Origin: Mobula hypostoma
Lineage: Eukaryota
Direction: 5' to 3'
Assembly: GCF_963921235.1 (NCBI RefSeq)
Contig: NC_086108.1
Span: 9,052,001-9,116,000, forward strand
Length of the DNA stretch: 64,000 bases
Shown: positions 3,552 to 59,835 of the stretch, one piece after another
How positions within the stretch are numbered: position 1 is the stretch's first letter
How the letters are laid out: the number at the start of each line of letters is the position of its first letter
The notes under the pieces: model-generated
The model's input: only the letters and a program-made list of their open reading frames with translations
Database searches by the model: none
Told to the model about the DNA's origin: nothing
Made by a program: the position numbers and the translations under genes

Positions 3552-4510
3552 ATGGCGCTGAATCAGCACGTGGGAAGGAGATTGAAAATCTGGCTGGAGT
3601 GGTGTCATAAAAACCTCTCACTCAATGTCAGCAAGACCAAGGAGTTAATTATAGACTTCAGCAGAAGGAAAGCAGAGGTCCATGAGCCAGTTCCCATCAG
3701 AGGATCGGAGCTGGAGAGAGTCAGCAACTTTAAATTCCTGGGTGTCATTATTTCAGAGGACCTGTTCTGGGCCCAGCATGCAAGCGCAGTTGTGAAGAAA
3801 GCACAGCAGCGTCTCTACTTCTTCAGGAGTTTGTGGAGATTTGGCATGACATCTAAAACTCTGACAAACTTATATAGATGTGTACTAGACAGCATACTGA
3901 TAGGCTGCATTACAGCCAGGTATGGAAACACCAATGCCCTTGAATGGAAAATCCTACAAAACGTAGCGGATATGTCCCAGTCCATCACGGATAAAGCCCT
4001 CCCAACCATTGAGCACATCTACGCGAAACATTGTCACAGGAAAGCAACATCCATCATCAGGAACCCTCACTACACCCAGGACATGCTCTCTTCTCGCTGC
4101 TGCCATCAGCTGGAAGGTACGGGAGCCTCAGGACTCACACCATCAGGTTCAGACACAGTTATCTCCACTCAACCATCAGGCTCTTGAACCAAAGGAGATA
4201 AATTCACTCAACTTCACTCACCCCCTCACTGAAATGTTCCCACAACCTTCGGACTCACTTTCAATGACTCTCCATCTCACGTTTGCGATATTAATTGCTT
4301 TGTTGTATATTACCATTTCTTTCTTCTTGCATTTGTACAGTCTGTTGGCTTCTGCACTCTGGATGATCACTCAAGTCGGAGTGGTCTTTCATTGATTCTG
4401 TTATGGTTATTATTCTATAGATTTATTGAAAATCCCCACAATAAAATGAATCTCAGGGTTTTATATAGTGATAAATATGTACTTTGCTAATAAATTGACC
4501 TTGAACTTTA
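3552..4510 (+). mobile_element. L2/Rex-Babar-like LINE, RT C-terminal (DUF1891-type) fragment with 3' tail
   Basis: ORF 3552-4187 reads WCHKNLSLNVSKTKELIIDF...VSNFKFLGVIISEDL...KKAQQRLYFFRSL, then frameshifts. Ends in aataaattgaccttgaacttt. Confidence 0.85.
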
Positions 4511-20585: not shown

Positions 20586-20660
20586 CACGAGGGCGCTGAG
20601 ACACGAGGGCGCTGAGCCACGAGGGCGCTGAGCCACGAGGGCACTGAGCCACGAGGGCAC
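20586..20660. repeat. 16-bp tandem repeat (about 4.7 copies of CACGAGGGCGCTGAG[A/C])
   Basis: Units start at 20586, 20602, 20618, 20634 and 20650. Confidence 0.9.
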
Positions 20661-27029: not shown

Positions 27030-27652
27030 AGAACATGGGACGGGAAAGTGGGGTGGGAGAGAGCACGGGATGGAAAAGAGGGGTGGGAGAGAGCGCGGGA
27101 CGGGAGGGTGGGGGAGAGAGCAAGGGACGGGACAGTGGGGTGGGGGAGAGGGGACGGGACGGCGTGGTGAGAGATAGAGCACAGGACGGGACGGGGGGTT
27201 GGGGGGAGTGAGCAAGGGATGGGACGGTGGGGTGGGAGAAGAGCATGGGACGGTGGGAGACAGAGCACAGGACGGGACGGCGGAGGGGAGAGAGAGAACG
27301 GGATGGGACGGCGGGGTGAGAGAGAGAGCACGGGATGGGACGGGGGTGTGGGAGAGAGCATGGGACGGGACGGCGTGGTGAGAGATAGAGCATGGGACGG
27401 GACAGGGGGGTGGGAGAGAGAGCACGGGACAGTGGGGTGGCAGAGAGAGCACGGGATGGGACGGTGGGGTGAGAGAAGAGCACGGGACGGTGGGGTGGGA
27501 GAGAGAGCACGGGACAGTGGGGTGGGAGAGAGAGCAGGGGATGGGACGGTGGGGTGGGAGAAGAGCACGGGACGGTGGGGTGGGAGAAGAGCACGGGACG
27601 GTGGGGTGGGAGAGAGAGCACGGGACGGAACGATGGGGTGGGGGAGAGCACG
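27030..27652. repeat. G/A-rich minisatellite (about 24-30 bp, GAGAGCACGGGACGGTGGGGTGGGA)
   Basis: More than 20 imperfect tandem copies visible. Confidence 0.9.
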
Positions 27653-27876
27653 GTTCAGGTGGATGTTAAACTCACTGAAGCGCTTACCCAAGAGGAAGTG
27701 AGAAGTTGTCCTTCTCACCAGATTTGGACCCCTCAACAGTCACAAAGAAGGCAGAGGACATACAAGGGGGGAGCAGGAGGGGTTGTGGGAACAATGTGAC
27801 CAGAAGGCAGAAACATCGCAGTGGACAGAGAGTGCGCACGCGTGTGCTGCTCACGCCCAGTGGGTATAGGACTCAC

Positions 27877-29757
27877 CTGCTGGAAGAAGACCTGGGCAGT
27901 GTCCTGTCCGACGGCAGGCCCCGAGCCTTGCTGGGTGATGACGACCTTCCCGGCTGGGACAGGGAGGGCAACCGAGTTGCTGCTGCCGGCCTGCGTGAGC
28001 GTCTGGACGTGCGAAGGGGGAGCGGGGGCAGAGGCAGCCTGCACTGCCAGCAGTGAGGTCTGCCCGTTGCCCAGAGCAACCAGGCCACCGGGACCCTGCT
28101 GGGCAGCGCTGGCAGAGGCAGGTGCCTCCCCCGGGCCCAGCACAGCCGAAGCAGCCGCCCCTGCCTGCCCTGGCAGGGTCACGCCCTGGATGACGGCAGG
28201 CGCTGAGGCCTGGTTCTGTGACCCGAGCGACACAGGCATTTGGAAGAGGGCTGGCTGCCCCACCGGGCTGGGCTGCAACTGGATGGGGGCGGAGAGAATG
28301 TGGGTGGCCCCATGGGCTCCCTGGGCAGCGATGACCTGGCCCAGGCTCAGCTGGCCTGCCAGGCCCTGCCCACTCAGGATGTGGGCCGGCAGGGCCTGGT
28401 TGGCGATGATGTGGGTGGCGGAGGGCTGGGCGCCCAGCAGCTGGCCTCCCACACCGGGCTGCAGGGTGGGCAGGGACTGGGGCAGGGACAGGCCATGGCC
28501 GGAAGGCAGCTGCCCCTGCAGCAGGAACTGGCTCTGGCCCTGCAGCACAGCCTGCGGAACCTGCTGGGGCTGGATGACGATGCTGCCCCCCTGCACGTGC
28601 AGGCTGAGGGGCTTGCCGAAGGCGGCAGGCTGGGCGGCCTGCTGGGGCTTGAAGACGGTCGAGGGGATGGTTTGGGGGAAGGCTGCCCCCGAGGCCGAGA
28701 AGACCACGCTCTGGGCTGGCTTGCTTGTCATAAAGGTCAGGTTCTGCTGGGCCTTGGGTGGCGGCGGGGGCTGCTGTGGGGGCTGGTGCGACTGCTGCTG
28801 CTGCTGCAGAGAGGGGGGAGCCTCGGCCTGCACGGTGAAGGGCTTCGAGCTGATCTGGAAGAGCTTGTGCTGCACCAGGCCCGTGCTAGGCTTGGGCTGG
28901 ATGGGGGTGGGAGTGCGCTGGACCACCACACTCTGGGCCTGCATCACGGCCGGGCTGGGGCTGGGCCTGGTCACCCCGCCGGAAGCCCCGGCGAAGAGCG
29001 AGTTGCCATTGAGGGTGGCCGGGCCCGAGGCCTTCTGCAGGACCAGCCCCGCACTGGGCGGGGACACTCCAGATGAGGGGAGGGCCACCCCTGGCTGAGG
29101 CTGGGGCGGCGGCTGAGGCTCGGGGGCGGGTGAGGAGATATAGCTGACCCCCGGCACGCCGCCCACCTGTGTGGGCTGACCGGCCTTGGCGATGACCTGC
29201 TGCCCGGGCTGGTTGATAGCCATCAGCGGCTGACTGGACAGCTGGCCCACCACCTGGATCTGGCTGATGCCCAGCGCCCCCGAGGGGCTCCCATTGGGCA
29301 GCGGCTGTAGCGTCACGTTGCCCAGCCCCACCTGCTGAAGGAAGGGTTGCAGGCTGATGGCCTTGTTCACCACCTGGCCCCCCAGGGCCTGCGGCTGGAT
29401 GAGGGCCTGCTGGGCCAAGACAGGGGGCGGAGGGGCCGGCTGCTGCTGCAGGCCAATCAGGTCGGCGCCGGCGGGGAAGAGCTGGCCGCCGTCAGCCGAC
29501 TGGGACGCCGGCTGCAGCGAGGGGAAGTGCAACGAGGCGATGTCCAGGTCAGCATCCTCCTCCAGCGACTGCTCCGTGATGTTGGCCTCCTGAAGGCTCT
29601 GCTGAAGGATGTCGCAGGGCTGCTCGGAGTTCTGCAGGTTGGAGCCGGACGGCGGCCCCAGGATCTCATCTTCGAGGAAGTCAAGGTCAACCGCGCTGGA
29701 GGAGCTCTGCGTGTGCCCGCTGTTCAGGTGGTTCACCGTCGCATCCTGGACGTTGAG
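27877..29757 (-). CDS. BICRA: BICRA coding exon 4 (large, 1881 nt)
   Basis: Acceptor ttgtctttgcag|CTC, donor CAG|gtgagt. Contains VDLDFLEDEILG, QPCDILQQSLQEANITEQ, QPFLQQVGLGNVTLQP, RTPTPIQPKP, QNLTFM and GQPALFQMPVSL, all matching human BICRA/GLTSCR1. Confidence 0.97.
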
Positions 29758-29855
29758 CTGCAAAGACAAGTCCATCGGTCACTCCCCAGTTATTCCAGTC
29801 CCCGTGATTAAACAGCCCAGGAAGTCAGCGGGTCAGACAATTAGCAAATGAAATC

Positions 29856-30250
29856 TACTCAGTGGCCACTTTATTTGGTACACCTGTATACCTGCTTGTT
29901 AACGCAAATATCTAATTAGCCAATCACGTGGCAGCAACTCAATGCACAAAAGCATGCTGACATGGTCAAGAGGTTCAGAGCAAACATCAGAATGGGGAAG
30001 AAATGTGATCTAAGCGACTTTGACTGTGGAATGATTGTTGGTGCCAGATGGGGCAGTTTGAGCATCTCAGAAGCTGCTGATCTCCTGGGATTTTCACACA
30101 CAACACCGATGAGCTACAGACTATGAACATACACTCAGTGGCCACTTTATTAAGTACAGAAGGCACCCAATAGTGGCCACTGAGTGTCTGACTGTTGGTG
30201 TCAGATGGGGTGGTTTGAGGATCTCAGAAACTGATCTCCTGGGATTTACT
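29856..30250 (+). mobile_element. Tc1 5' remnant plus a 58-bp TIR-only miniature element (30130-30187)
   Basis: TIR CTCAGTGGCCACTTTATT and transposase start MGKKCDLSDFDCGMIVGAR. The miniature element reads ACACTCAGTGGCCACT...AGTGGCCACTGAGTGT. Confidence 0.8.
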
Positions 30251-31054
30251 AATGCATGAGAGAGCGGCAGATGCTGGAATCTGGAGTAAAATATCAAACC
30301 GCTGGGAAAACTCAGTGGGTCAGGCAGCATCTGTGGTGTGGGGAAAGACACAGGCAAGGTTTTGGGCTGTGACAATGCAGGGTCTTAAGGTAGTGACACC
30401 AGATCTGTCAGGATCCAATGTCATGTGTTCTCACAACTGTCTAGCTGTTGCCAAGCCGCTATAAGATGCTTCCTGTGAAAACAGCTCAGCTCTCCGACTG
30501 TGAAAACTCATTCAGTCAGCAGGAAAGATGTGTCGTTTTATCATGGGTGGAGTTTAAAGAATCGAAAGGGCAGAACTGCGTGCTCTATGCCACCTCAAGC
30601 TTTGCATGTGCCATCTGCTTACCACTCCTGTTCCCTTGCTCTATGCGCTCCTTCAACCTTATTTACAACTAACTTTCCCGTCGGTAGGTGACCAAAACTG
30701 CACACAATACTCCAAATTCGGCCTCACCAATGTCTTTTACAACTTCAGCATAACATCCCATACTCAATACTTTTGACTTATGAAGGCCAATGTGCCAAAA
30801 GCTTTATTCTACCCGTGACACCACTTTTAAGGAGTTATGGATCTGTATTCCCGGATCCCTGTGTTCTACCAAACTCCTCAGTGCCCAGCGTCCTCCCAAA
30901 GGGCAACACCTCAGATTTGTCTGCATGAAATTACTTTAATAAAAGAGTGCTCAACCTTTCTGTAGACAGCAGGGATATATTGTTCTGTAGGACCATGATG
31001 GGTCAGTAGGGTCAAGAGAGCTGGGCTCTAAATGGGTGAAGAACAGTGCGTTCA

Positions 31055-31453
31055 AAATTCAAAGTAAATTTATTGTCATAGTGCATACAAGTCACCATAC
31101 ACAACCCTGAGATTTATTTTCTTGTGGGCATACTCAATAAATCTATAGAATAATAACCATAACAATGAAAGACTGCCCAGCTAGTGTGTTCAACTGGTGT
31201 GCAAAGACAATAAACTGTGCAAATACAAAAAAGTAATGATAATAAATAAATAAACAAACAAATAAAGCGCTAAGTATTGAGAACATGAGATGAAGAGGCC
31301 TTGAAAGCGAGTCCATTGGTTGTGGGAACATTTCAACGATAGGGCAAGTGAAGTTGAGTGAAGTTATCCCCTTTGGTTCAGGAGCCTGATTTCCTGAACC
31401 TGGTGGTGTGAGTCCTGACTCTCCTGTACCTTCTTCCTGCAGGCAGCAGTGAG
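31055..31453 (-). mobile_element. L2/Rex-like LINE 3' end (left flank of the array)
   Basis: Reverse complement of the LINE tail also seen at 4090-4510 and 21950-22330. Confidence 0.85.
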
Positions 31454-34400
31454 GGTTGCCGACGGTGGGCAGTGAGGGTCGCTGATGGTGGGTGGTGAGG
31501 GTCGCGGACGGTGGGCGGTGAGGGTCACTGATGATCGGTGGTGATGGTTGCCGACTGTGGGTGGTGAGGGTCGCGGACGGTGGGCGGTGAGGGTCGGTGA
31601 TCGGTGGTGAGGGTCGCTGATGATCGGTGGGTTCACAGACGGTGGGCGGTGAGGGTCGGTGATCGGTGGTGAGGGTCGCTGACAGTGGGCGGTGATGGTC
31701 AGTGATGATCGGTGGTGATGGTCGCTGACGGTGGGTGGTGAGGGTCGGTGATGATGGTCGCTGACGGTGGGTGGTGAGGGTCGGTGATGATGGTCGCGGA
31801 CGGTGGGTGGTGATGGTCGCTGACGGTGGGCGGTGAGGGTTGCGGACGGTGGGCAGTGAGGGTCGGTGATGATTGGTGGTGATGGTCGCTGACGGGCGGT
31901 GAGGGTCGGTGATGATCGGTGGTGAGGGTCGCTGACGGGCGGTGAGGGTCGGTGGTGATGGTCGCTGACGGGCGGTGAGGGTCGGTGATGATCGGTGGTG
32001 AGGGTCACTGATGGTGGGCGGTGAGGGTCGGTGATGATCGGTGGCAATGGTCGCTGACGGGTGGTGAGGGTCGGTGATGATGGTAGCTGACGGTGGGCGG
32101 TGAGGGTCGCGGACGGTGGGCGGTGAGGGTCGCGGACGGTGGGCGGTGAGGGTCGCTGATGATCGGTGGTAATGGTCGCTGACGGTGGGCGGTGAGGGTC
32201 GGTGATGGTCGCGGACGGTGGGTGGTGATGGTCGCTAATGATCGGTGGTGATGGTTGCCGACGGTGGGCGGTGAGGGTCGCGGACGGTGGGCGGTGAGGG
32301 TCGCGGACGGTGGGCGGTGAGGGTCGCGGACGGTGGGTGGTGAGGGTCGCGGACGGTGGGTGGTGAGGGTCGCTGATGTTCGGTGGTGAGGGTCGGTGAT
32401 GATCGGTAGTGATGGTCGCTGACGGTGGGCAGTGAGGGTCGGTGATGGTCGCGGACGGTGGGTGGTGATGGTCGCTAATGATCGGTGGTGATGGTTGCCG
32501 ACGGTGGGCGGTGAGGGTCGCGGACGGTGGGTGGTGAGGGTCGCCGACGGTGGGTGGTGAGGGTCGCCGACGGTGGGTGGTGAGGGTCGCTGATGTTCGG
32601 TGGTGAGGGTCGGTGATGATCGGTGGTGAGGGTCGCTGACGGTAGGTGGTGAGGGTTGCCGACAGTGGGCGGTGAGGGTCGGTGATGATCGGTGGTGAGG
32701 GTCGCTGACGGTAGGTGGTGAGGGTCGGTGATGATCGGTGGTGATGGTTGCCGACAGTGGGCGGTGAGGGTCGGTGATGATCGGTGGTGAGGGTCGCTGA
32801 CGGTGGGTGGTGAGGGTCGGTGATGATCGGTGGTGATGGTCGCTGACGGTAGGTGGTGAGGGTCGGTGATGATCGGTGGTGATGGTTGCCGACAGTGGGC
32901 GGTGAGGGTCGGTGATGATCGGTGGTGAGGATCGCTGACGGTGGGCAGTGATGGTCGCTGACGGTGGGTGGTGAGGGTCGCCAATGGCGGGCGGTGAGGG
33001 TCGCTGATGATCGGTGGTGATGGTCGCTGACGGTGGGCGGTGAGGGTCGGTGGTGAGGGTCGCTGACGGTGGGCGGTGAGGGTCGGTGGTGATGGTCGCT
33101 GACGGTGGGCGGTGAGGGTCGGTGGTGATGGTCGCTGACGGTGGGCGGTGAGGGTCGGTGGTGAGGGTCGCTGACGGTGGGTGGTGATGGTCAGTGATGA
33201 TGGTCGCTGACGGTGGGTGGGGAGGGTCGGTGATGATCGGTGGTGATGGTCGCGGACGGTGGGCGGTGAGGGTCGGTGATGATCGGTGTTGAGGGTCACT
33301 GATGGGTGGTGAGGGTCGGTGATGATCGGTGGTGATGGTCGCTGACGGTGGGTGGTGAGGATCGGTGATGATCGGTGGTGAGGGTCACTGACGGTGGGTG
33401 GTGAGGATCGGTGATGATCGGTGGTGAGGGTCACTGACGGTGGGCGGTGAGGGTCGGTGATGATCGGTGGCGATGGTCGCTGACGGTGGGTGGTGAGGGT
33501 CGGTGATGGTCGCTGACGGTGGGTGGTGAGGGTCGCGGACGGTGGGTGGTGATAGTTGCCGACGGTGGGCAGTGAGGGTCGCTGATGATCGGTGGTGATG
33601 GTTGCCGATGGTGGGTGGTGAGGGTTGCGGCCGGTGGGTGGTGAGGGTCGCTGATGATCGGTGGTGATGGTTGCCGACTGTGGGTGGTGAGGGTCGCGGA
33701 CGGTGGGCGGTGAGGGTCGCTGATGATCGGTGGTGATGGTTGCCGATGGTGGGTGGTGAGGGTCGGTGATGATCGGTGATGATGGTTGCCGACTGTGGGT
33801 GGTGAGGGTCGCGGACGGTGGGCGGTGAGGGTCGGTGATGATCGGTGGTGATGGTTGCCGACTGTGGGTGGTGAGGGTCGCGGACGGTGGGCGGTGAGGG
33901 TCGCTGATGATCGGTGGTGATGGTTGCCGATGGTGGGTGGTGAGGGTCGCGGACGGTGGGCGGTGAGGGTCGGTGATGATCGGTGGTGAGGGTCACTGAT
34001 GGTGGGCGGTGAGGGTCGGTGATGATCGGTGGTGAGGGTCGCTGACGGGCGGTGAGGGTCGGTGACGATCGGTGGTGAGGGTCGCTGATGGTGGGTGGTG
34101 AGGGTCGCCGATGGCGGGCGGTGAGGGTCGGCGATGGTGGATGGTGAGGGTCGGTGATGATCGGTGGTGAGGGTCGCTGACGGTGGGCGGTGAGGGTCGG
34201 TGATGGTCGCTGACGGTGGGTGGTGATGGTCGCTGATGGTGGGTGGTGAGGGTCGGTGATGATCGGTGGTGAGGGTCGCCGATGGCGGGCGGTGAGGGTC
34301 GGCGACGGTGGATGGTGAGGGTCGCTGATGATCGGTGGTGAGAGTCGCGGACGGTGGGCGGTGAGGGTCGGTGATCGGTGGTGAGGGTCGCTGATGATCG

Positions 34401-37400
34401 GTGGGTTCACAGACGGTGGGCGGTGAGGGTCGGTGATCGGTGGTGAGGGTCGCTGACAGTGGGCGGTGATGGTCAGTGATGATCGGTGGTGATGGTCGCT
34501 GACAGTGGGTGGTGAGGGTCGGTGGTGAGGGTCGCGGACGGTGGGTGGTGAGGGTCGGTGATGGTCGCTAATGATCGGTGGTGATGGTTGCCGACGGTGG
34601 GCGGTGAGGGTCGCGGACGGTGGGTGGTGAGGGTCGCGGACGGTGGGTGGTGAGGGTCGCTGATGTTCGGTGGTGAGGGTCGCTGATGATCGGTAGTGAT
34701 GGTCGCTGACGGGCGGTGAGGGTCGGTGATGGTCGCGGACGGTGGGTGGTGATGGTCGCTAATGATCGGTGGTGATGGTTGCCGACGGTGGGCGGTGAGG
34801 GTCGCGGACGGTGGGTGGTGAGGGTCGCTGAAGTTCGGTGGTGAGGGTCGGTGATGATCGGTGGTGAGGGTCGCTGACGGTAGGTGGTGAGGGTTGCCGA
34901 CAGTGGGTGGTGAGGGTCGGTGATGATCGGTGGTGAGGGTCGCTGACGGTAGGTGGTGAGGGTCGGTGATGATCGGTGGTGATGGTTGCCGACAGTGGGC
35001 GGTGAGGGTCGGTGATGATCGGTGTTGAGGGTCGGCGATGGTGGATGGTGAGGGTCGCTGATGATCGGTGGTGAGTGTCGCTGACGGTGGGTGGTGAGGG
35101 TCGGTGATGATCGGTGGTGAGGGTCGCTGACGGTGGGTGGTGAGGGTCGGTGATGATCGGTGGTGATGGTCGCTGACGGTAGGTGGTGAGGGTCGGTGAT
35201 GATCGGTGGTGATGGTTGCCGACAGTGGGCGGTGAGGGTCGGTGATGATCGGTGGTGAGGATCGCTGACGGTGGGCAGTGATGGTCGCTGACGGTGGGTG
35301 GTGAGGGTCGCCAATGGCGGGCGGTGAGGGTCGCTGATGATCGGTGGTGATGGTCGCTGACGGTGGGCGGTGAGGGTCGGTGGTGAGGGTCGCTGACGGT
35401 GGGCGGTGAGGGTCGGTGGTGATGGTCGCTGACGGTGGGCGGTGAGGGTCGGTGGTGATGGTCACTGACGGTGGGCGGTGAGGGTCGCTGACGGTGGGCG
35501 GTGATGGTCAGTGATGATGGTCGCTGACGGTGGGTGGGGAGGGTCGGTGATGATCGGTGGTGATGGTCGCAGACGGTGGGCGGTGAGGGTCGGTGATGAT
35601 CGGTGTTGAGGGTCACTGATGGGTGGTGAGGGTCGGTGATGATCGGTGGTGATGGTCGCTGACGGTGGGTGGTGAGGATCGGTGATGATCGGTGGTGAGG
35701 GTCACTGATGGTGGGCGGTGAGGGTCGGTGATGATCGGTGGCGATGGTCGCTGACGGTGGGTGGTGAGGGTCGGTGATGGTCGCTGACGGTGGGTGGTGA
35801 GGGTCGCGGACGGTGGGTGGTGATAGTTGCCGACGGTGGGCGGTGAGGGTCGCTGATGATCGGTGGTGATGGTTGCCGATGGTGGGTGGTGAGGGTTGCG
35901 GCCGGTGGGTGGTGAGGGTCGCTGATGATTGGTGATGATCGGTGGTGATGGTTGCCGACTGTGGGTGGTGAGGGTCGCGGACGGTGGGCGGTGAGGGTCG
36001 CTGATGATCGGTGGTGATGGTTGCCGATGGTGGGTGGTGAGGGTCGCGGACGGTGGGCGATGAGGGTCGGTGATGATCGGTGGTGAGGGTCGCTGATGGT
36101 GGGCGGTGAGGGTCGGTGATGATCGGTGGTGAGGGTCGCTGACGGTGGGCGGTGAGGGTCGGTGACGATCGGTGGTGAGGGTCGCTGATGGTGGGTGGTG
36201 AGGGTCGCCGATGGCGGGCGGTGAGGGTCGGCGATGGTGGATGGTGAGGGTCGCTGATGATCGGTGGTGAGGGTCGCTGACGGTGGGCGGTGAGGGTCGG
36301 TGATGATGGTCGCTGACGGTGGGTGGTGATGGTCGCTGATGGTGGGTGGTGAGGGTCGGTGATGATCGGTGGTGAGGGTCGCCGATGGCGGGCGGTGAGG
36401 GTCGGCGACGGTGGATGGTGAGGGTCGCTGATGATCGGTGGTGAGGGTCGCGGACGGTGGGCGGTGAGGGTCGGTGATCGGTGGTGAGGGTCGCTGATGA
36501 TCGGTGGGTTCACAGACGGTGGGCAGTGAGGGTCGGTGATCGGTGGTGAGGGTCGCTGACAGTGGGCGGTGATGGTCAGTGATGATCGGTGGTGATGGTC
36601 GCTGACGGTGGGTGGTGAGGGTCGGTGATGATGGTCGCGGACGGTGGGTGGTGAGGGTCGGTGATGGTCGCGGACAGTGGGTGGTGATGGTCGTTGACGG
36701 TGGGCGGTGAGGGTTGCGGACGGTGGGCAGTGAGGGTCGGTGATGATTGGTGGTGATGGTCGCTGACGGGCGGTGAGGGTCGGTGATGATCGGTGGTGAG
36801 GGTCGCTGACGGGCGGTGAGGGTCGGTGATGAGGGTCACTGACGGTGGGCGGTGAGGGTCGGTGATGATCGGTGGTGAGGGTCACTGATGGTGGGCAGTG
36901 AGGGTCGGTGATGATCGGTGGCAATGGTCGTTGACGGGTGCTGACGGTGGGCGGTGAGGGTCGCGGACGGTGGGCGGTGAGGGTCGCGGACGGTGGGCGG
37001 TGAGGGTCGCGGACGGTGGGCGGTGAGGGTCGCGGACGGTGGGCGGTGAGGGTCGCAGCCGGTGGGTGGTGAGGGTCGCTGATGATCGGTGGTGAGGATC
37101 GCTGACGGTGGGTGGTGAGGGTCGGTGATGATCGGTGGTGATGGTTGCCGACGGTGGGTGGTGAGGGTCGGTGATGATCGGTGGTGATGGTTGCCGACGG
37201 TGGGTGGTGAGGGTCGCGGACGGTGGGTGGTGAGGGTCGGTGATGATCGGTGGTGAGGGTCGCGGACGGTGGGTGGTGAGGGTCGGTGATGATCGGTGGT
37301 GAGGGTCGCGGACGGTGGGTGGTGAGGGTCGGTGATGATTGGTGGTGATGGTCGCTGACGGGCGGTGAGGGTCGGTGATGATGGTCGCTGACGGTGGGTG

Positions 37401-40400
37401 GTGAGGGTCGCGGATGGTGGGCGGTGAGGGTCGGTGATGGTCGGTGGGTGGTGAGGGTCGCGGACGGTGGGTGGTGAGGGTCGCAGCCGGTGGGTGGTGA
37501 TGGTCGCTGACGGTGGGTGGTGAGGGTCGGTGATGATCGGTGGTGATGGTCGCTGACGGTGGGTGGTGAGGGTCACTGATGGTGGGCGGTGAGGGTCGGT
37601 GATGATCGGTGGTGAGGGTCGCTGACGGTGGGTGGTGATGGTCGCTGACGGTGGGCGGTGAGGGTCGGCGACGGTGGATGGTGAGGGTCGCTGATGATCG
37701 GTGGTGAGGGTCGCGAACGGTGAGCGATGAGGGTCGGTGATGATCGGTGGTGATGGTCACAGACGGTGGGTGGTGATGGTCGCTGACGGTGGGTGGTGAG
37801 GGTCGGTGATGATGGTCACAGACGGTGGGCGGTGAGGGTCGGTGATGGTCGTGGACGGTGGGTGGTGATGGTTGCTAATAATCGGTGGTGATGGTCGCTG
37901 ACAGTGGGTGGTGATGGTCGCTGACGGTGGGCGGGGCGGTGGTGAGGGTCGCTGACGGTGGGTGGGGAGGGTCGGTGATGATCAGTGGTGATGGTCGCGG
38001 ACGGTGGGCTGTGAGGGTCGGTGATGATCGGTGGTGAGGGTCACTGACGGATAGTGAGGGTCGGTGGTGATGGTCGCTGACGGTGGGTGGGGAGGGTCGG
38101 TGATGATCGGTGGTGAGGGTCGCGGACGGTGGGTGGTGAGGGTCGGTGATGATTGGTGGTGATGGTCGCTGACGGGCGGTGAGGGTCGGTGATGATGGTC
38201 GCTGACGGTGGGTGGTGAGGGTCGCGGACGGTGGGCGGTGAGGGTCGGTGATGGTCGGTGGGTGGTGAGGGTCGCGGACGGTGGGTGGTGAGGGTCGCAG
38301 CCGGTGGGTGGTGATGGTCGCTGACGGTGGGTGGTGAGGGTCGGTGATGATCGGTGGTGATGGTCGCTGACGGTGGGTGGTGAGGGTCACTGATGGTGGG
38401 CGGTGAGGGTCGGTGATGATCGGTGGTGAGGGTCGCTGACGGTGGGCGGTGAGGGTCGGCGACGGTGGATGGTGAGGGTCGCTGATGATCGGTGGTGAGG
38501 GTCGCGAACGGTGAGCGATGAGGGTCGGTGATGATCGGTGGTGATGGTCACAGACGGTGGGTGGTGATGGTCGCTGACGGTGGGTGGTGAGGGTCGGTGA
38601 TGATGGTCACAGACGGTGGGCGGTGAGGGTCGGTGATGGTCGTGGACGGTGGGTGGTGATGGTTGCTAATAATCGGTGGTGATGGTCGCTGACAGTGGGT
38701 GGTGATGGTCGCTGACGGTGGGCGGGGCGGTGGTGAGGGTCGCTGACGGTGGGTGGGGAGGGTCGGTGATGATCAGTGGTGATGGTCGCGGACGGTGGGC
38801 TGTGAGGGTCGGTGATGATCGGTGGTGAGGGTCACTGACGGATAGTGAGGGTCGGTGGTGATGGTCGCTGACGGTGGGTGGGGAGGGTCGGTGATGATCA
38901 GTGGTGAGGGTCACTGATGGTGGGCGGTGAGGGTCGGTGATGATCGGTGGCGATGGTCGCTGACGGTGGGTGGGGAGGGTCGGTGATGATCAGTGGTGAG
39001 GGTCACTGATGGTGGGCGGTGAGGGTCGGTGATGATCGGTGGCGATGGTCGCTGACAGTGGGTGGTGAGGGTCGGTGATGATGGTCGCTGACGGTGGGTG
39101 GTGAGGGTCGCGGACGGTGGGCAGTGAGGATCGGTGATGGTCGCGGACGGTGGGTGGTGATGGTCGCCGATGGTGGGCAGTGAGGGTCGCTGATGATCGG
39201 TGGTGATGGTTGCCGATGGTGGGTGGTGAGGGTTGCGGCCGGTGGGTGGTGAGGGTCGCTGATGATCGGTGGTGAGGGTCGGTGGTGATGGTTGCCGACG
39301 GTGGGAGGTGAGGGTCGCCGACGGTGGGTGGTGAGGGTCGGTGATGATCGGTGGGCGGTGAGGGTCCGTGATGATTGGTGGTGATGGTCGCGGACGGTGG
39401 GTGGTGAGGGTCGGTGATGGTCGCGGACGGTGGGCGGTGAGGGTTGCGGACGGTGGGTGGTGAGGGTCGGTGATGATCGGTGGGCGGTGAGGGTCGGTGA
39501 TGATTGGTGGTGATGGTCGCGGACGGTGGGTGGTGAGGGTCGGTGATGGTCGCGGACGGTGGGCGGTGAGGGTTGCGGACGGTGGGCGGTGAGGGTCGCT
39601 GATGATCGGTGGTGATGGTCGCGGACGGTGGGTGGTGAGGGTCGGTGATGGTCGCGGACGGTGGGCGGTGAGGGTTGCGGACGGTGGGCGGTGAGGGTCG
39701 CTGATGATCGGTGGTGATGGTTGCCGACGGTGGGTGGTGAGGGTCGCCGACGGTGGGCGGTGAGGGTCGGTGATGATCGGTGGTGATGGTCGCTGATGGT
39801 GGGTGGTGAGGGTCGGTGATGATGGTCACGGACGGTGGGTGGTGAGGGTCGGTGATGGTCACGGACGGTGGGTGGTGATGGTCGCGGACGGTGGGCGGTG
39901 AGGGTCGCGGACGGTGGGCGGTGAGGGTCGCGGACGGTGGGCGGTGAGGGTCACGGACGGTGGGCGGTGAGGGTCGGTGATGATTGGTGGTGATGGTCGC
40001 TGACGGGCGGTGAGGGTCGGTGATGATGGTCGCTGACGGTGGGTGGTGAGGGTCGCGGACGGTGGGCGGTGAGGGTCGGTGATGGTCGGTGGGTGGTGAG
40101 GGTCGGTGATGATCGTTGGTGATGGTTGCCGACGGTGGGTGGTGAGGGTTGCGGGTGGTGAGGGTCGGCGACGGTGGGTGGTGAGGGTCGGTGATGATGG
40201 TCGCGGACGGTGGGTGGTGAGGGTCGGTGATGGTCACGGACGGTGGGTGGTGATGGTCGCGGACGGTGGGCGGTGAGGGTCGCGGACGGTGGGCGGTGAG
40301 GGTCGCGGACGGTGGGCGGTGAGGGTCGGTGATGATTGGTGGTGATGGTCGCTGACGGGCGGTGAGGGTCGGTGATGATGGTCGCTGACGGTGGGTGGTG

Positions 40401-42849
40401 AGGGTCGGTGATGATGGTCGCTGACGGTGGGTGGTGAGGGTCGCGGACGGTGGGCGGTGAGGGTCGGTGATGGTCGGTGGGTGGTGAGGGTCGGTGATGG
40501 TCGGTGGTGATGGTTGCCGACGGTGGGTGGTGAGGGTTGCGGGTGGTGAGGGTCGCTGATGATGGTCGCTGACGGTGGGCGGTGAGGGTTAGTGATGGTC
40601 GCTAACGGTGGGTGGTGAGGGTCGCTGACGGTGGGCGGTGAGGGTCGCTGATGATCGGTGGTGATGGTCACTGACGGCGGGTGGTGAGGGTCCCGACGGT
40701 GGGTGGTGATGGTTGCCGACGGTGGGTGGTGAGGGTCGCCGACGGTGGGCGGTGAGGGTTAGTGATGTGGTCGCTAACGGTGGGTGGTGAGGTTCGCTGA
40801 CGGTGGGCGGTGAGGGTTAGTGATGGTCGCTAACGGTGGGTGGTGAGGGTCGCTGACGGTGGGCGGTGAGGGTTAGTGATGGTCGCTAACGGTGGGTGGT
40901 GATGGTTGCCGACGGTGGGCGGTGAGAGTTAGTGATGGTCGCTAACGGTGGGTGGTGATGGTTGCCGACGGTGGGTGGTGAGGGTCGCCGACGGTGGGCG
41001 GTGAGGGTTAGTGATGGTCGCTAACGGTGGGTGGTGAGGGTCGCTGACGGTGGGCGGTGAGGGTCGCTGACGGTGGGCGGTGAGGGTCGCTGATGATCGG
41101 TGGTGATGGTCACTGACGGCGGGTGGTGAGGGTCCCGACGGTGGGTGGTGATGGATGCCGACGGTGGGTGGTGAGGGTCGCCGACGGTGGGTGGTTAGGG
41201 TCGCGGATAATCGGTGGTGATGGTTGCGGACGGTGTTCGGTGAGGGTCGCTGATGGTCGCTGACGGTGGGTGGTGAGGGTCGGTGATGATGGTCGCGGTC
41301 GGTGATGATGGTCGCTGACGGTGGGTGGTGAGGGTCGCTGATGATCGGTGGTGATGGTCACTGACGGCGGGTGGTGAGGGTCCCGACGGTGGGTGGTGAT
41401 GGTTGCCGACGGTGGGTGGTGAGGGTCGCCGACGGTGGGTGGTGAGGGTCGCGGATAATCGGTGGTGATGGTTGCCGACGGTGGGTGGTGAGGGTTGCGG
41501 ACGGTGTTCGGTGAGGGTCGCTGATGGTCGCTGACGGTGGGTGGTGAGGGTCGGTGATGATGGTCGCGGTCGGTGATGATGGTCGCTGACGGTGGGCGGT
41601 GAGGGTTGGTGATGGTCGCGGACGGTGGGTGGTGAGGGTCGGTGATGGTCACGGACGGTGGGCGGTGATGGTCGCGGACGGTGGGCGGTGAGGGTCGCGG
41701 ACGGTGGGCGGTGAGGGTCGCGGACGGTGGGCGGTGAGGGTCGCGGACGGTGGGCGGTGAGGGTCGGTGATGATTGGTGGTGATGGTCGCTGACGGGCGG
41801 TGAGGGTCGGTGATGATGGTCGCTGACGGTGGGTGGTGAGGGTCGGTGATGATGGTCGCTGACGGTGGGTGGTGAGGGTCGCGGACGGTGGGCGGTGAGG
41901 GTCGGTGATGGTCGGTGGGTGGTGAGGGTCGGTGATGGTCGGTGGTGATGGTTGCCGACGGTGGGTGGTGAGGGTTGCGGGTGGTGAGGGTCGCTGATGA
42001 TGGTCGCTGACGGTGGGCGGTGAGGGTTAGTGATGGTCGCTAACGGTGGGTGGTGAGGGTCGCTGACAGTGGGCGGTGAGGGTCGCTGACGGTGGGCGGT
42101 GAGGGTCGCTGATGATCGGTGGTGATGGTCACTGACGGCGGGTGGTGAGGGTCCCGACGGTGGGTGGTGATGGTTGCCGACGGTGGGTGGTGAGGGTCGC
42201 CGACGGTGGGTGGTGAGGGTCGCGGATAATCGGTGGTGATGGTTGCCGACGGTGGGTGGTGAGGGTTGCGGACGGTGTTCGGTGAGGGTCGCTGATGGTC
42301 GCTGACGGTGGGTGGTGAGGGTCGGTGATGATGGTCGCGGTCGGTGATGATGGTCGCTGACGGTGGGTGGTGAGGGTCGCTGATGATCGGTGGTGATGGT
42401 CACTGACGGCGGGTGGTGAGGGTCCCGACGGTGGGTGGTGATGGTTGCCGACGGTGGGTGGTGAGGGTCGCCGACGGTGGGTGGTGAGGGTCGCGGATAA
42501 TCGGTGGTGATGGTTGCCGACGGTGGGTGGTGAGGGTTGCGGACGGTGTTCGGTGAGGGTCGCTGACGGTGGGTGGTGAGGGTCGGTGATGATGGTCGCG
42601 GTCGGTGATGATGGTCGCTGACGGTGGGCGGTGAGGGTTAGTGATGGTCGCTGACGGTGGGCGGTGAGGGTCACTGATGATCGGTGGTGATGGTCGCTGA
42701 TGGTGGGTGGTGAGGGTCGGTGATGATGGTCGCGGTCGGTGATGATGGTCGCTGACGGTGGGCGGTGAGGGTCGCTGATGATCGGTGGTGATGGTCACTG
42801 ACGGTGGGTGGTGAGGGTCGCTGACGGTGGGCAGTGAGGGTCGCCGATG
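31448..42849. repeat. 11.4-kb minisatellite, 23-bp variant units (GGTGAGGGTCGCTGACGGTGGGY / GGTGAGGGTCGGTGATGATCGGT) with higher-order duplications
   Basis: Continuous interspersed variants of the two 23-mers. Rare variants recur at 791 bp and about 2.1-2.3 kb spacing. Confidence 0.97.
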
Positions 42850-42965
42850 CTGGATGCTGCTTTCCTACACTCTATAGACGTACTCAAAAGAGTGGAGGGC
42901 TTTATCCACGAAGGACTGGGCTGTCGCGAAGCCAGTCAATATACTCTGCACTAGTCATCTACAGA
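42846..42965 (-). mobile_element. Upstream continuation of the same LINE (right flank of the array)
   Basis: Minus strand cagtccttcgtggataaagccctcc...aggaaagcagcatcca matches LINE 3978-4056 (cagtccatcacggataaagccctcc...aggaaagcaacatcca). Confidence 0.8.
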
Positions 42966-43210
42966 AGTTAGGCCCCCTCTTGACCAGATTTTTCACCACT
43001 GTAACAAGTGATCCAGGAACCTACTCGTGGAAGGGAACTGTAAAGAGGAAGGGATTTTAGGAAGAAGCTACAGAGAGAGACCCCACAAGAGAAGCAGGGT
43101 TGTTTGTTGAGTGTTTGGCATAGTCCGTGCCTTTCACCTGCTGCGTAAATGTTTAGCTCAGGAGAGATCACAGTGAAGCAAGAGGAAAGGGGGCGGCAGG
43201 CAACACTTAC

Positions 43211-43276
43211 AGATGCGTCGGTGAAGAAAGCACTGGCCGGGTCTGTGCTTGTGTCGAGGAGATCTTCACCATCAAG
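43211..43276 (-). CDS. BICRA: BICRA coding exon 3
   Basis: caacag|CTT...TCT|gtaagt, 66 nt. LDGEDLLDTSTDPASAFFTDAS aligns to human LDSDDLLDNPGEAQSAFYEGPG. Confidence 0.93.
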
Positions 43277-43924
43277 CTGTTGATTGAATCAGAAACATGT
43301 TTAAAGGTGTTATCTGCAGCCACAGTCACCCGATCCAGGTTTACTGGACCAGTCGTGGAGATCCCTCAAAGAGCACAGCTTCTCAACAGCGAGAGCAGAG
43401 GGGAGCTGGAGATGTGACCTGGATACAGAAGACAGGGGACTCCGGTCAACACAGCTCAACAGTGGGCAAAGATCCGTGTTACGCACCGCTCTCACCATAG
43501 CCCAGGGCGAGTGCAGAGACCAGACTGCACCAGCTAATCTCACCATGCACACAGACTGGGCAGTGCATTGGCACAGTGTGTAAAGCCAGACTTGGGCTTC
43601 AGTCCCAGTCTCCGACACTCTGTGTGGAGTTTGCACACTCTTCCTGTGACTGCTTGAGTTCCAATCCGGTTTTCCTGACCGTATCTCAAAGACCTGGGGG
43701 TTGGTGGGTTAACTGGGCTGACTGTAGCTTGTCCAAGGATCTGGGGGGGCGCAGAGGGAGCTAATGGAAATGGGGGGGGGGGGAGAATGGAGTGCTGTTA
43801 GTGTGAATGAACACTTGTCGGTCAGCACTGATGCGACTGGCTGAATGGCCCATTTCCTGGTTACATCTCCATGATTTAACATTACTGGCGGAATCAGTAT
43901 TAACCTGAAGGAAGGTTACAGCAG

Positions 43925-44270
43925 AGGTGAGGGGATGCAGAGGGGAGGGTGTGGATAGAGGTGGGGGAGGGTGCAGATAGAGGTGGGGGAGGGTGCAGAT
44001 AGAGGTGGGGGGGTGGGCCTAGATAAAGGTGGGGAAGGGTGGGGATAGAGGTGGGGGAGGGTGTGGAGAGAGGTGGGGGAGGTGGGGGTGGGTGTAAATA
44101 GAGGTGGGGAAGGTGGGGGTGGGTGTAAATAGAGGTGGGGGAGGTGGGGGTGGGTGTAAATAGAGGTGGGGGAGGTGGGGGTGGGTGTAAATAGAGGTGG
44201 GGGAGGTGGGGGTGGGTGTAAATAGAGGTGGGGGGTATAAATAGAGGTGGGGTGGGTGGAGTTAGAGGTG
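43925..44270. repeat. G-tract minisatellite (GAGGTGGGGGAGGTGGGGGTGGGTGTAAATA, about 31 bp, plus shorter variants)
   Basis: Tandem units with multiple G3-G5 runs on the + strand. Confidence 0.88.
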
Positions 44271-44773
44271 AGGGGAGGTGGAGTAGTTTGGGGCAGAACA
44301 ACTGTGGGGCCACAGACCAAGACAGCCGCCACGGGGGCGGGGGGGGAGGGAGTGAAGGCTGCTGGGGGGGGGAGGGGAGGGCGTGACGGCTGCAACGGGG
44401 GGGCGGGTAGGGGAGGATGTCACGGCCACCACAGGGAAGGGAGGTCCGGACACGCATTAGGAAGGATGTCAAGGCATGCAGGCGTGTGGCTGGGACTCCG
44501 AACTACTGTGGATGATACGGAGAACAAACAAGAGAAAACGGGTTTAGCTGGAGCAGGTTAGGAATAAAGTCATGGATTTAGAATGGGTGGCTCGGGAATG
44601 GAAGTGGGGAATGATTTCACAGAGCAGCTTAAGAGAGGGGCACTGTACCCAGAGTACAACCTGGCACTCCTTATTGGACAAACATTGGGAACAGGAGGGC
44701 TGACCGGGACACGTGAGATTTTAGAGCATCGAAGAGAGCCAATACAAATCCCACATCAGCAAGTCAGTCTTAC

Positions 44774-44816
44774 CTGGTCTGAACCATGCAAGAAGTCATT
44801 TAGAGCCTGGGGGTCA
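44774..44816 (-). CDS. BICRA: BICRA coding exon 2
   Basis: ccctccctcacag|T GAC CCC CAG...GAC CAG|gtaaga, 43 nt. (C)DPQALNDFLHGSDQ versus human DPQALNDFLHGSEK. Confidence 0.96.
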
Positions 44817-46725
44817 CTGTGAGGGAGGGAGAAGATACATTTTAGGAATGGCTACAGGTTCATCTGATCAAAAGCCGACAAAACAACAAGGACTGGGATG
44901 GTACAGATCAAACACACGTCTTACACCACCCAGTCCTCCCAATGATGGACATGCAGTGTGCGAGGGAAGCGCTCCCCCCTCTCAAACGCACAACCTCCTC
45001 ATCCTGATGGGACAAACAGGGAAACTCGGATTTGGAAATGTATCATCCCTTCACCACCAGTGGCCCCACACCCTGAGACTCGTCCCCAACAGCACCCTGG
45101 CAATGTCTTCACGTGGATGGCTGTGGCCCAAGGTCATTCAACAGCACCTTTTCAACCAGCAATGGGCTGATTTGATGTGAACTATTAATTCTCTGTCTTT
45201 GTCTATCCACCTCCCTTTCTCCCCCTCTGCCTCTCTCCACCCCCCTTCTGCCTCTCTCTCTTCCTCCCCCTCCACCTCTCTCTCTACCCCCCACCCTGAC
45301 AGACACTGCCTGATCAGCTGAGTGTTTCCATTCCTCCCTGATTTCAGATTTCCCGCTGTTCATGGTTAATATACGCGGAGGTCAGCACATGAAGCCACTC
45401 GTAATGAAAGAAACCTCAAAGACACCAGACATCAGTGGACACATGAAGTGGGTTAACCACTGAGTCACTCAAAACCTGGTAACGATCAAAGCCACAGCTG
45501 TACCCGAGAGTTTCAGTTAAGGGACAGTCACAAAAATAACCCTGTGTGTTATTTAACAGAAATCATTACAGCGAATTTAAAAGCAGGCCAGATAAAGGAC
45601 AAGAGATTTGCAAGGCCGTGGTTTTGCACACTATACACGTGGGTAATCCTCGTCACAAATAACCAGAGCAGGCAACAGAATCTGACCACAGACACTAGAA
45701 CTGCCAGTGTGGAGATCGGGCGGGGCAAGCCTCCTTCACTGGAGTGTTTGGCGGGGCTACTCCGTGCACTGCATGAGCAGAGAGCTTGTGACCTCCATGA
45801 GCAGATCTACAGACTATGCGTCACCTCGGGATGACAAACCACACGTCCTCCACTTCTACCACCGCTGGGAAAAGTATACCCATCCTCGTTACTATTCAGA
45901 CCAACTGGCCACATTAGGTGACTTGCGGCAGTGTGAAACTGCCAAATCCTGTCTGCTGGAACCCAGCAGGCAATGGGTGGGGTGTGTGCTCCCAGACAAC
46001 AGCAGCATGGCCGACCAACCAGAAGCCTTCACCATCTGAGATCAGGCTAATTACCAGATGCAATTACCCCGACGACTCTCCACCTCTCCAAACCACAGTC
46101 CCGAAACCCTCCTGCACATGGGTTGCTGTGATCCCTCCTTATAATTGCCAGTTCTATATGCAGGGAAAAGGGTGGGAGTCGGGCAAAGACCATACAGTCA
46201 TAGAGCACTACAGAAGCAGGACCTTCGGCCCATCGAATCCATGCCGACCCGGTCTTCTGCCTAGTCCCAGTGAGCTGCTCCGGGACCACATCCATCTACC
46301 TATCCAAACTTCCTTTATACGTTACAATGGAATCTCCATCCACTACTTGGGCTGGCAGCTCGTTCCACACTTGCAGCACCCACTGAGTGAAGAAACTCCC
46401 TTTAAATATTTCACCTTTCATCCCTTATCCTAGTTCTGGTTTTATCCAACCTGAGGGTAAACGCCTACATACATTTACCTTATCTATATCCCTCAATTTT
46501 GAATACCTCTATCAACTGTCCCCCTCATTCTCCTGCACTCCAGGTAACAACCCTTTCCCTCCAACTCTTTAAATATTATTGAGATCACTCCTGTAGGTAG
46601 GTGACTAGAACTGCACACAATACTCTAAATTTGGCCTTTTGCATGTTGTATGATGTGGGTGATTATGGTCTTTCAATGACTGTGATTATTCTTTGCAAAT
46701 TTTTTTCACAGAACTGGTTTGCTAT

Positions 46726-47174
46726 TGGATCGACTGGGCTTATACTCGATGGAATTTAGAAGATTGAGGGGGGATCTTATTGAAACGTATAAAATCCTAA
46801 AGGGATTGGACAGGCTAGATGCAGGAAGATTGTTCCCGACGTTGGGGAAGTCCAGAACGAGTGGTCACAGTTTGAGAATAAAGGGGAAGCCTTTTAGGAC
46901 CGAAATTAGGAAAAACTTCTTCACACAGAGAGTGGTGAATCTGTGGAATTCTCTGCCACAGGAAACAGTTGAGGCCAGTTCATTGGCTATATTTAAGAGG
47001 GAGTTAGGTATGGCCCTTGTGGCTAAAGGGATCAGGGGATATGGAGGGAAGGCTGGGGCAGGGTTCTGAGTTGGATGATCAGCCATGATCATACTGAATG
47101 GCGGTGTAGGCTCGAAGGGCCGAATGGCCTACTCCTGCACCTATTTTCTATGTTTCTATGTTTTCTATGTTTCT
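46726..47174 (+). mobile_element. Young CR1 3' end, sister of 25453-26011
   Basis: Nearly identical ORF end (...YGGKAGAGF*), 3' UTR and (TTTCTATG)n tail. Confidence 0.9.
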
Positions 47175-49256: not shown

Positions 49257-49297
49257 CAAATTACATCTAGCAGACAACGTCCATCTTCATCATCCAT
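49257..49297 (-). CDS. BICRA: BICRA coding exon 1 (canonical start; exon spans 49257-49302)
   Basis: ttctccttacag|TTGAC ATG GAT GAT GAA...ATT TG|gtatgt. MDDEDGRCLLDVI(C) is identical to the human BICRA N-terminus. Confidence 0.97.

Positions 49298-59804: not shown

Positions 59805-59835
<31 letters not shown>

What the first reader, a model, noticed from the sequence alone, without database searches (positions are those of the whole stretch)
31448..42849. An 11.4-kb minisatellite born from a 23-bp piece of a LINE, still sitting between the two halves of its parent
Seen: the left flank (31055-31453) is a LINE 3' end and the right flank (42846-42965) is the upstream part of the same LINE family. 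The array interrupts it at the segment coding AASII.DPHHP. The unit GGTGAGGGTCGCTGATGATCGGT resembles that segment in other copies in the window (reverse complement of about 4049-4071, AGTGAGGGTTCCTGATGATGGAT; compare about 21900-21935). Array translations accordingly repeat IITDPHHP. Inference: local amplification of about 500 units from one retroelement 23-mer, now about 85% of a 13.45-kb intron.
Basis: partly seen in the sequence, partly recalled or inferred. Interest (0 to 1): 0.75.

Follow-up and report, generated by a model that had tools for sequence, protein, structure and literature searches.

The report
Giant minisatellite born inside a LINE
In an intron of a ray's BICRA gene, one 23-base stretch of a dead jumping gene has been copied in place about 500 times into an 11.4-kb repeat, a known kind of event that is unusual here only for its size and for how clearly its origin can still be read.

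Summary
Confirmed. An 11.4-kb degenerate minisatellite (23-bp period, about 495 unit-lengths) fills 85% of a 13,453-bp intron of BICRA in a myliobatiform ray. It lies between two colinear, same-strand halves of one dead, 5'-truncated LINE of the same subfamily. Its first unit (42828-42850) is LINE sequence. One correction: the halves do not rejoin cleanly, because 14 LINE bases are missing at an 8-bp microhomology. Short-read contigs bridge the right junction in the best-matching organism and in a relative about 3% diverged. Two more distant relatives carry the same LINE insertion. New observations: the parent 23-mer hides a 13+10-bp internal repeat; 6 of 10 common array variants copy one half onto the other (post hoc, permutation p 0.004); a nearly CpG-free parent became a tract with 1,131 CpGs; growth went on by 0.3-2.3-kb block duplications. 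Transposon-derived minisatellites and 3-30-kb intronic VNTRs are known. The scan also noted a 23-bp, CR1-born 47-kb array in another genome. It resembles avian 'sequence stuttering' but fails two of its features here. Single-locus status, total length in reads and polymorphism are untested. New member of a known kind.

The parts
31051..31453 (-). 3' part of a dead LINE (end of ORF2, 3' UTR, tail); resumes at an 8-bp microhomology (CTCACTGC) shared with the array unit
   Evidence: BLAST to other window copies; pairwise alignments
31454..42850 (-). Degenerate minisatellite, period 23 bp (13+10 internal halves), about 495 unit-lengths, 66% GC, 1,131 CpG (o/e 1.43); C-rich on the transcribed strand, G-rich on the template strand
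42828..42850 (-). Parental unit, still in LINE register (codes the I-I-x-D-P-H-H-P stretch of ORF2)
   Evidence: 22 paralogous contigs of run X19 match up to 42828 and then continue into the LINE (table 7); ORF2 relatives carry the motif
42851..42969 (-). 5' part of the same LINE copy, truncated at about 42969, with an internal deletion of about 60 bp at about 42930
   Evidence: loose ends at 42930 and 42969 in all four runs
29758..43210 (-). Host intron of BICRA, 13,453 bp, GT..AG
43211..43276 (-). BICRA coding exon upstream of the intron (66 bp)
27877..29757 (-). BICRA large coding exon downstream of the intron (1,881 bp)
   Evidence: (first 136 aa: 100% to a Mobula BICRA record, 99% to Hypanus and Hemitrygon)
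44774..44816 (-). BICRA coding exon (43 bp)
49257..49297 (-). BICRA coding exon segment (MDDEDGRCLLDVI)
31560..36830 (.). Higher-order blocks repeated at offsets of 2.1-2.3 kb, 2.8 kb and 4.9 kb (95-99% identical segments)
37247..38966 (.). Recent duplication of about 0.8 kb (longest exact repeat 469 bp, offset 791)
39820..42566 (.). Nested duplications of 0.2-0.4 kb at offsets of 0.27-1.8 kb (98-99.7% identical)
3812..4509 (+). Reference copy of the same LINE subfamily, with a single unexpanded unit at about 4054-4076
   Evidence: PF09004; relatives carry RVT_1 + PF09004

Best explanation
A single-locus minisatellite that arose in place from a dead LINE and has no function of its own. Step 1 (shown): a 5'-truncated LINE of the RVT_1 + PF09004 type inserted, sense to the gene, into a BICRA intron before these rays diverged. 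Step 2 (inferred): the 23 bases coding 'IIxDPHHP', bounded by CCA..CCA and made of two similar halves (13 + 10 bp), were duplicated by slippage or unequal exchange. Step 3 (pattern shown, mechanism inferred): out-of-register pairing between the halves produced 10- and 13-bp drop-outs and copied bases from one half to the other. Together with GC-ward changes, this turned a nearly CpG-free unit into one with about 2.4 CpG. Step 4 (pattern shown): growth continued by duplication of multi-unit blocks of 0.3-2.3 kb. Step 5 (inferred): the downstream end ate 14 LINE bases by pairing at an 8-bp microhomology. The array is probably tolerated because its transcribed strand has no GTRAG donor motif and no AATAAA.
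For: Colinearity, same strand, equal divergence and same subfamily of the flanks. All 8 other window copies that cover the segment have one unit. Paralogous contigs leave the array exactly at 42828 and continue into the 14 missing bases. Contigs bridge unique intron into the array: X1, 42803-43648, 0 differences (X1 may be the source sample); X5, another organism, 42784-43652, 25 differences. Contigs of X18 and X19 (54 differences over about 755 bases) cover exon, intron and LINE down to 42894/42896. Anchor spacings are 411 at 10 bp and 355 at 13 bp; 6 of 10 common variants are among the 10 of 69 possible changes that make the halves alike, and all five mismatched columns are hit (permutation p 0.004, best of 98 alignments). 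CpG: 0 in 7 of 8 parent copies and 1 in the eighth, against 2.39 per unit. Block duplications. GTRAG 0 on the transcribed strand against 337 on the other, and AATAAA 0. The annotated ray BICRA proteins join the two exons without array sequence.
Against: No genome is held, so other loci could not be searched. No unexpanded orthologue was seen: the X18 and X19 contigs end about 45 bases short of the unit. The left junction and the total length were not checked in reads. The direct repeat that matches the 23-bp period is only 3 bp, shorter than the 5-10 bp of the Haber-Louis model. No target-site duplication was found for the LINE copy. The variant tests are post hoc, variants share descent, and the parent unit is inferred from 6 window copies with column 14 set as in the array (2 of the 6 copies have it). 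'CpG-creating' (7 of 10, p 0.0003) fits the same variants as well as 'half-copying' does.
Confidence: 0.87

Rival explanations
1. The tandem array arose once in a source element or elsewhere and was carried here, either as cargo of a LINE subfamily with an internal VNTR (as in SVA) or as a dispersed satellite that recombined into the homologous LINE segment.
For: Cannot be excluded without a genome. The clean loss of 14 LINE bases at a microhomology could be a recombination scar.
Against: 8 of 8 other window copies have one unit. The unit core occurs once outside the array, as a 10-bp match in an exon. The first unit is in exact LINE register. An 11-kb internal array in a copy that keeps only about 0.55 kb of LINE is unlikely to have been retrotransposed (inference).
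Confidence: 0.07
2. The array is real but much shorter, and the 11.4-kb length is inflated by the assembly (false block duplications).
For: Near-identical blocks exist (469 bp exact). G-rich minisatellites are hard to sequence (passages of 10.1101/2025.10.14.682431). No laid contig spans the array.
Against: There are 125 unit types among 554 segments and 4,493 distinct 31-mers, 1,997 of them unique, so at least several kb are non-redundant. Duplications are nested at many offsets and differ by 0.3-5%.
Confidence: 0.04
3. The array has been kept or enlarged by selection as a regulatory element of BICRA (a new CpG-dense, G4-prone domain acting as enhancer, silencer or transcription brake), like TRACT in CACNA1C.
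For: CpG o/e 1.43 and 99 CpG per kb. 19% of 25-bp windows reach a G4Hunter-type score of 1.2 or more. TRACT long alleles go with lower expression (abstract of PMC13131567). The array start is shared with a second organism.
Against: No expression or chromatin data. Private variants show CpG transitions at 2.3-3.5 times the non-CpG rate (p 0.05-0.08; 21-36 events), which suggests some germline methylation. Such effects can exist without selection.
Confidence: 0.08
4. Two unrelated LINE fragments happen to flank an unrelated minisatellite.
For: LINE fragments of this family are common in the window (at least 10), and a 23-mer match of 19/23 alone is modest.
Against: It needs the same strand, the same subfamily, colinearity to within 14 bases, and a unit equal to the intervening segment.
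Confidence: 0.01

Closest known systems
Transposon-derived minisatellites (Ahmed and Liang 2012, PMC3389668, parts 1-3 of 4 read; review PMC6947457, passages read)
   Same: The unit is a piece of a TE and the array overlaps the parent copy, with local growth. 7,276 human cases are reported, 601 of them from L1.
   Different: Size: those 7,276 total 1.05 Mb (about 144 bp each, my division) and Alu-derived ones average 2.3-2.4 units, against 11.4 kb here. Their screen required at least 95% unit identity and would miss this array.
TRACT, the 30-bp intronic VNTR of human CACNA1C (PMC13131567, abstract and one results section read), and human-specific VNTRs (PMC8327921, passages read)
   Same: Intronic, same size class (3-30+ kb), many variant units, length change by block duplication and deletion.
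   Different: I saw no statement that TRACT comes from a TE. Here the parent is a LINE still present on both sides. The longest perfect tract here is only 114 bp. Polymorphism and expression effects are untested here.
Avian 'sequence stuttering' (Hron et al., PMC12954441; abstract, passages, first part of discussion read)
   Same: Strictly local, imperfect tandem expansion of formerly single-copy intronic sequence in a gene with GC-rich coding sequence (GC3 0.83-0.85). Their spans reach 23.5 kb.
   Different: They describe it in birds and gerbils, on dot chromosomes without interspersed repeats and with introns largely covered by repeats. Here only 4.0% of the rest of the window is tandem repeat, LINE fragments abound, and no exon copies were found.
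Mouse Ms6-hm/Hm-2 (MaLR LTR) and B1-derived VNTRs; chicken HinfI/SCR1 (CR1) and PROsat (L1 ORF2) satellites (seen only as table rows and citations in PMC6947457 and PMC9659126)
   Same: Large tandem arrays grown from a retroelement segment, in some cases from ORF2.
   Different: Different parents and unit sizes. I did not read the primary papers.

Membership tests
TE-derived tandem repeat (criteria of PMC3389668) | Unit at least 70% similar to the TE | tested here: met
   Array consensus matches the majority of 8 window copies at 19 of 23; no library consensus was available
TE-derived tandem repeat (criteria of PMC3389668) | Array overlaps a TE copy by at least one period | tested here: met
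   Unit 42828-42850 is in LINE register
TE-derived tandem repeat (criteria of PMC3389668) | Unit at least 20 bp, GC at least 40%, at least 2 units | tested here: met
   23 bp, 66% GC, about 495 unit-lengths
TE-derived tandem repeat (criteria of PMC3389668) | Screening filter of at least 95% identity among units (a filter of that study, not part of the concept) | tested here: not met
   TRF matches 69-75%
Single-locus minisatellite / VNTR | Present at one locus only | not testable with these tools
   No genome held; no second array in the 64-kb window
Single-locus minisatellite / VNTR | Copy number varies among individuals | not testable with these tools
   Only contigs were available; none spans the array
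Haber-Louis origin (as summarised in PMC6947457 and PMC3389668) | 5-10-bp direct repeats flank the amplified motif | tested here: inconclusive
   3-bp CCA at 23-bp spacing; an 8-bp repeat at 25-bp spacing marks the downstream junction but not the period
Sequence stuttering (PMC12954441) | Local, imperfect tandem expansion inside an intron | tested here: met
Sequence stuttering (PMC12954441) | Extensive length variation within the species | not testable with these tools
   No spanning reads
Sequence stuttering (PMC12954441) | Occasional copies of exon edges in neighbouring introns | tested here: not met
   8 exons against the window: best bit score 31, below their cut-off of 42.1; the feature is occasional, so this weighs little
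Sequence stuttering (PMC12954441) | Regional: introns widely covered by simple repeats, interspersed repeats absent | tested here: not met
   2,083 of 52,595 bases (4.0%) outside the array are TRF repeats; many LINE fragments
LINE (APE-type non-LTR retrotransposon) | Reverse transcriptase ORF2 | tested here: met
   For the sister copy at 3489-4184: PF09004, E 6.5e-9; all 37 longer relatives carry PF09004, 35 also RVT_1, 4 also PF03372
Rex1/Babar clade | Placement in the clade by an RT tree or a library consensus | not tested
   The label is recalled from the C-terminal motif; the review passages read (PMC6274825) and a search for the old domain name did not test it
CpG island (sequence thresholds recalled: over 200 bp, GC over 50%, o/e over 0.6) | Sequence thresholds | tested here: met
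   11.4 kb, 66% GC, o/e 1.43
CpG island (sequence thresholds recalled: over 200 bp, GC over 50%, o/e over 0.6) | Unmethylated in the germline | tested here: inconclusive
   CpG transitions 2.3-3.5 times enriched among 21-36 private variants, p 0.05-0.08

The most novel reading that the evidence does not exclude
This is the bird-type 'sequence stuttering' instability at work in a cartilaginous fish, in a GC-rich gene from an ancestrally small chromosome. Here the single-copy seed is known because it is LINE sequence. The array would then be length-polymorphic, would have grown many-fold since the split from a relative 3% diverged, and would show that conversion between the hidden halves of a unit can build an 11-kb CpG-dense domain from a CpG-free seed against methylation decay.
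Probability: 0.25. Interest if true: 0.6.

Novelty: new member of a known kind. Interest (0 to 1): 0.38.

Why it matters
How minisatellites start is poorly explained: one human survey could assign a mechanism to only 6% of TE-derived cases (PMC3389668). Here the seed, both boundaries and the ancestral unit can be read from hundreds of sister LINE copies. Relatives at about 3% and 7% divergence bracket the events. That makes it a good test locus for birth, unit evolution (half-to-half copying, CpG gain) and block growth of a very long VNTR. It also bears on whether the intronic instability described for bird dot chromosomes exists in other vertebrates. It is not a new kind of element, and no function is shown.

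Tried and rejected
Whole-genome search for the array: no genome is held. Summed contig depth on the array bin 42775-42812 was 2209 against 10.2 on unique intron in X1 (about 216 times; the assembly has 200 places at least 80% like that bin), 382 against 43.6 in X5 (about 9 times; 84% of the run read), and 0 in X18 and X19. This hints at an array of about the assembled size in organism A, a much shorter or more diverged one in organism B, and none in F and G. The tool states that such depth is no copy number and that lack of cover proves nothing, so I do not use it as evidence. One X1 contig first looked like a different allele of the array end. It is better explained as an internal segment present twice in the assembly (37877, 38668), so no allelic difference is claimed. 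A protein search with an array translation, to find the same expansion elsewhere, scored none of 7,997 candidates at E 1e-5; this is weak, because the query is low-complexity. Target-site duplication search: none. Hairpin drive: 171 nt at the array start fold no better than shuffles (z +0.89). Exon stuttering: none. Array-derived coding exon: none in 6 ray BICRA proteins examined. The two Atlas searches did not identify the gene reliably; one search did. BICRA/GLTSCR1 is absent from the one supplementary file of PMC12954441 held as text, and no paper held both 'BICRA' and 'dot chromosome', so a dot-chromosome location in birds is not established here. Searches of the scan's notes by sequence and nearby place found nothing.
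Full report
1. The observation. TRF finds one array at 31449-42844 with period 23 (494.9 copies, 69% matches, 7% indels). It is 65-67% GC with a G skew of about +0.6 throughout. It is not a plain 23-mer repeat: of 554 segments, 352 are 23 bp, 65 are 13 bp, 60 are 10 bp and 23 are 20 bp, in 125 types. A wrap-around alignment gives 367 ungapped full units.

2. The host. Four minus-strand exons (49257-49297, 44774-44816, 43211-43276, 27877-29757) have GT donors, the three internal ones have AG acceptors, and they join into an open frame. The start of the large exon is 100% identical over 136 aa to a Mobula BICRA record and 99% to Hypanus and Hemitrygon records, so the window is from a myliobatiform ray. 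The array's intron is 13,453 bp, 84.7% of it array. GC3 is 0.83-0.85. In one search, BICRA lies on records of 115-118 Mb in these three rays but 16-20 Mb in Amblyraja, Rhinoraja, Pristis and Heptranchias. This suggests an ancestrally small chromosome later fused (inference). Shorter shark chromosomes hold more simple tandem repeats (passages of PMC10620051).

3. The parent. At least ten fragments of one LINE family lie in the window. The longest codes the end of a LINE ORF2 (PF09004; 37 longer relatives, 35 with RVT_1). I recall this C-terminus as Rex1/Babar but did not test the clade. On the minus strand the right flank gives LINE sequence up to ...KAASS and the left flank resumes at ..LLP.GRRYR. 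Against the copy at 3812-4509, the right flank plus unit ends at 4071 and the left flank starts at 4093, at 79.5% and 80.6% identity. Both flanks score best against the same subfamily. Shuffles do not approach the right-flank score (87 against at most 35 in 500). Contigs of four public runs fix the boundaries. Paralogous contigs diverge at 42969 (5' truncation; 135-277 contigs per run), at 42930 (an internal deletion of about 60 bp) and, in X19, at 42828, where 22 contigs continue into the 14 bases this locus lacks. So the first unit, 42828-42850, is LINE sequence in register, and the far end runs into the LINE at an 8-bp stretch shared by unit and flank.

4. History. An X1 contig covers 42803-43648 with no difference and so bridges the right junction; X1 may be the source sample. 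An X5 contig from another organism covers 42784-43652 with 25 differences and carries about three units, so the array had started before that split. Contigs of X18 and X19 (two further organisms, 54 differences over about 755 bases) include the LINE part down to 42894/42896. Their 50 gap letters are too few to hold the 60-bp segment, so they share this copy and its deletion (the last step is inference). They stop about 45 bases short of the unit, so the pre-birth state was not seen. I laid 4 of the 20 runs that hold the stretch or part of it, and only the right junction.

5. How the unit evolved. The parent 23-mer is bounded by CCA on both sides in most copies and consists of two similar halves of 13 and 10 bases that differ at five columns. 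Anchor spacings in the array are 411 of 10 bp and 355 of 13 bp. Ten derived variants reach 10% of units. Six copy the other half's base, and all five columns are hit (10 of 69 possible changes do so; permutation p 0.004 after allowing for the best of 98 alignments). Seven would create a CpG in the parent context (14 of 69; p 0.0003), one of which does not in the array context. These tests are post hoc and overlap. Common variants run 5 weak-to-strong against 2 strong-to-weak, whereas private variants run 2 against 15 (Fisher p 0.009). That pattern is expected if GC-rich variants spread preferentially, although private variants may include assembly errors. The outcome is 1,131 CpG (o/e 1.43, against 0.30-0.38 in the flanking intron) from a parent with none in 7 of 8 copies. 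CpG transitions are 2.3-3.5 times enriched among private variants (p 0.05-0.08), a weak sign of methylation. Later growth was by blocks: offsets of 2.1-2.3 kb on the left, 0.8 kb in the middle and 0.27-1.8 kb on the right, 95-99.7% identical. The longest perfect period-23 tract is 114 bp. The G-rich strand is the template strand and is G4-prone (19% of windows at 1.2 or more). The transcribed strand has 0 GTRAG and 0 AATAAA, against 337 GTRAG on the other strand, which may be why the gene tolerates the array (inference).

6. What is known. TE-derived minisatellites are an established class: 7,276 in human, 601 from L1, mostly 2-3 units (PMC3389668, parts 1-3 of 4 read). The Haber-Louis origin model I saw only as summarised there and in PMC6947457 (passages). 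Satellites from LINE ORF2 are tabulated in PMC9659126 (passages). Intronic VNTRs of this size exist: TRACT is 3-30+ kb (PMC13131567, abstract and one section), and block duplication is the usual mode of length change (PMC8327921, passages). Avian sequence stuttering is the closest process (PMC12954441), and zebra finch dot-chromosome introns are over 70% tandem repeat (passages of 10.1101/2025.10.17.683159). That process is regional there, whereas here the rest of the window is 4.0% tandem repeat and rich in LINEs, with no exon copies. It works like a stutter, but I do not file it as one. Searches listed no LINE-born minisatellite in a cartilaginous fish. The library lacks most subscription papers, and unseen supplements (tables of PMC12954441 and PMC3389668, bioRxiv files) may bear on size precedents and on BICRA's location in birds. 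The scan's notes hold a similar unchecked case in another genome, a 47-kb array of a 23-bp CR1 ORF2 piece (e1-7938461).

7. Verdict. It is a new member of a known kind: a large, unusually legible example. The added value is the readable seed, the bracketing relatives, and the half-to-half and CpG pattern. Open points are single-locus status, true length, polymorphism, methylation and any effect on BICRA. Interest 0.38.

Noticed in passing
window 6340-6619: A second tandem repeat born from the same LINE family: a 95-bp piece just downstream of the 23-mer segment, repeated 2.9 times at 95% identity, inside its parent copy in another BICRA intron.
   Followed up: partly
window 31390-31395 and 21985-22000: The left flank and the LINE copy at 21878-22331 share the same deletion of about 19 bp in the end of ORF2, between the arms of a short inverted repeat; copies at 11285 and 61097 have different deletions there. 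This points to a shared sub-lineage or a deletion hot spot.
   Followed up: partly
window 21155-21458, 27020-27653, 43942-44284, 44333-44412, 45206-45282, 20586-20658: Six more short, strongly strand-skewed G/C minisatellites in BICRA introns, several within 0.2-0.7 kb of exons; none matched another place in the window well.
   Followed up: partly
window 43587: The window lacks 18 bases that the X5, X18 and X19 contigs carry, so this is a lineage-specific deletion near the exon.
   Followed up: no
window 60797-60855 and 61097-61522: A copy of the same LINE split by about 240 bases of AT-rich sequence just upstream of the 23-mer segment.
   Followed up: no
window 25260-26400 and 46730-47170: Near-identical young CR1-like LINE 3' ends with a CTATGTTT tail (label recalled); the one at about 25460-25990 is nested in an older copy.
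   Followed up: no
window 56200-60200: A decayed LTR/Gypsy-like pol and gag region on the minus strand, judged by eye from the sequence; not analysed.
   Followed up: no
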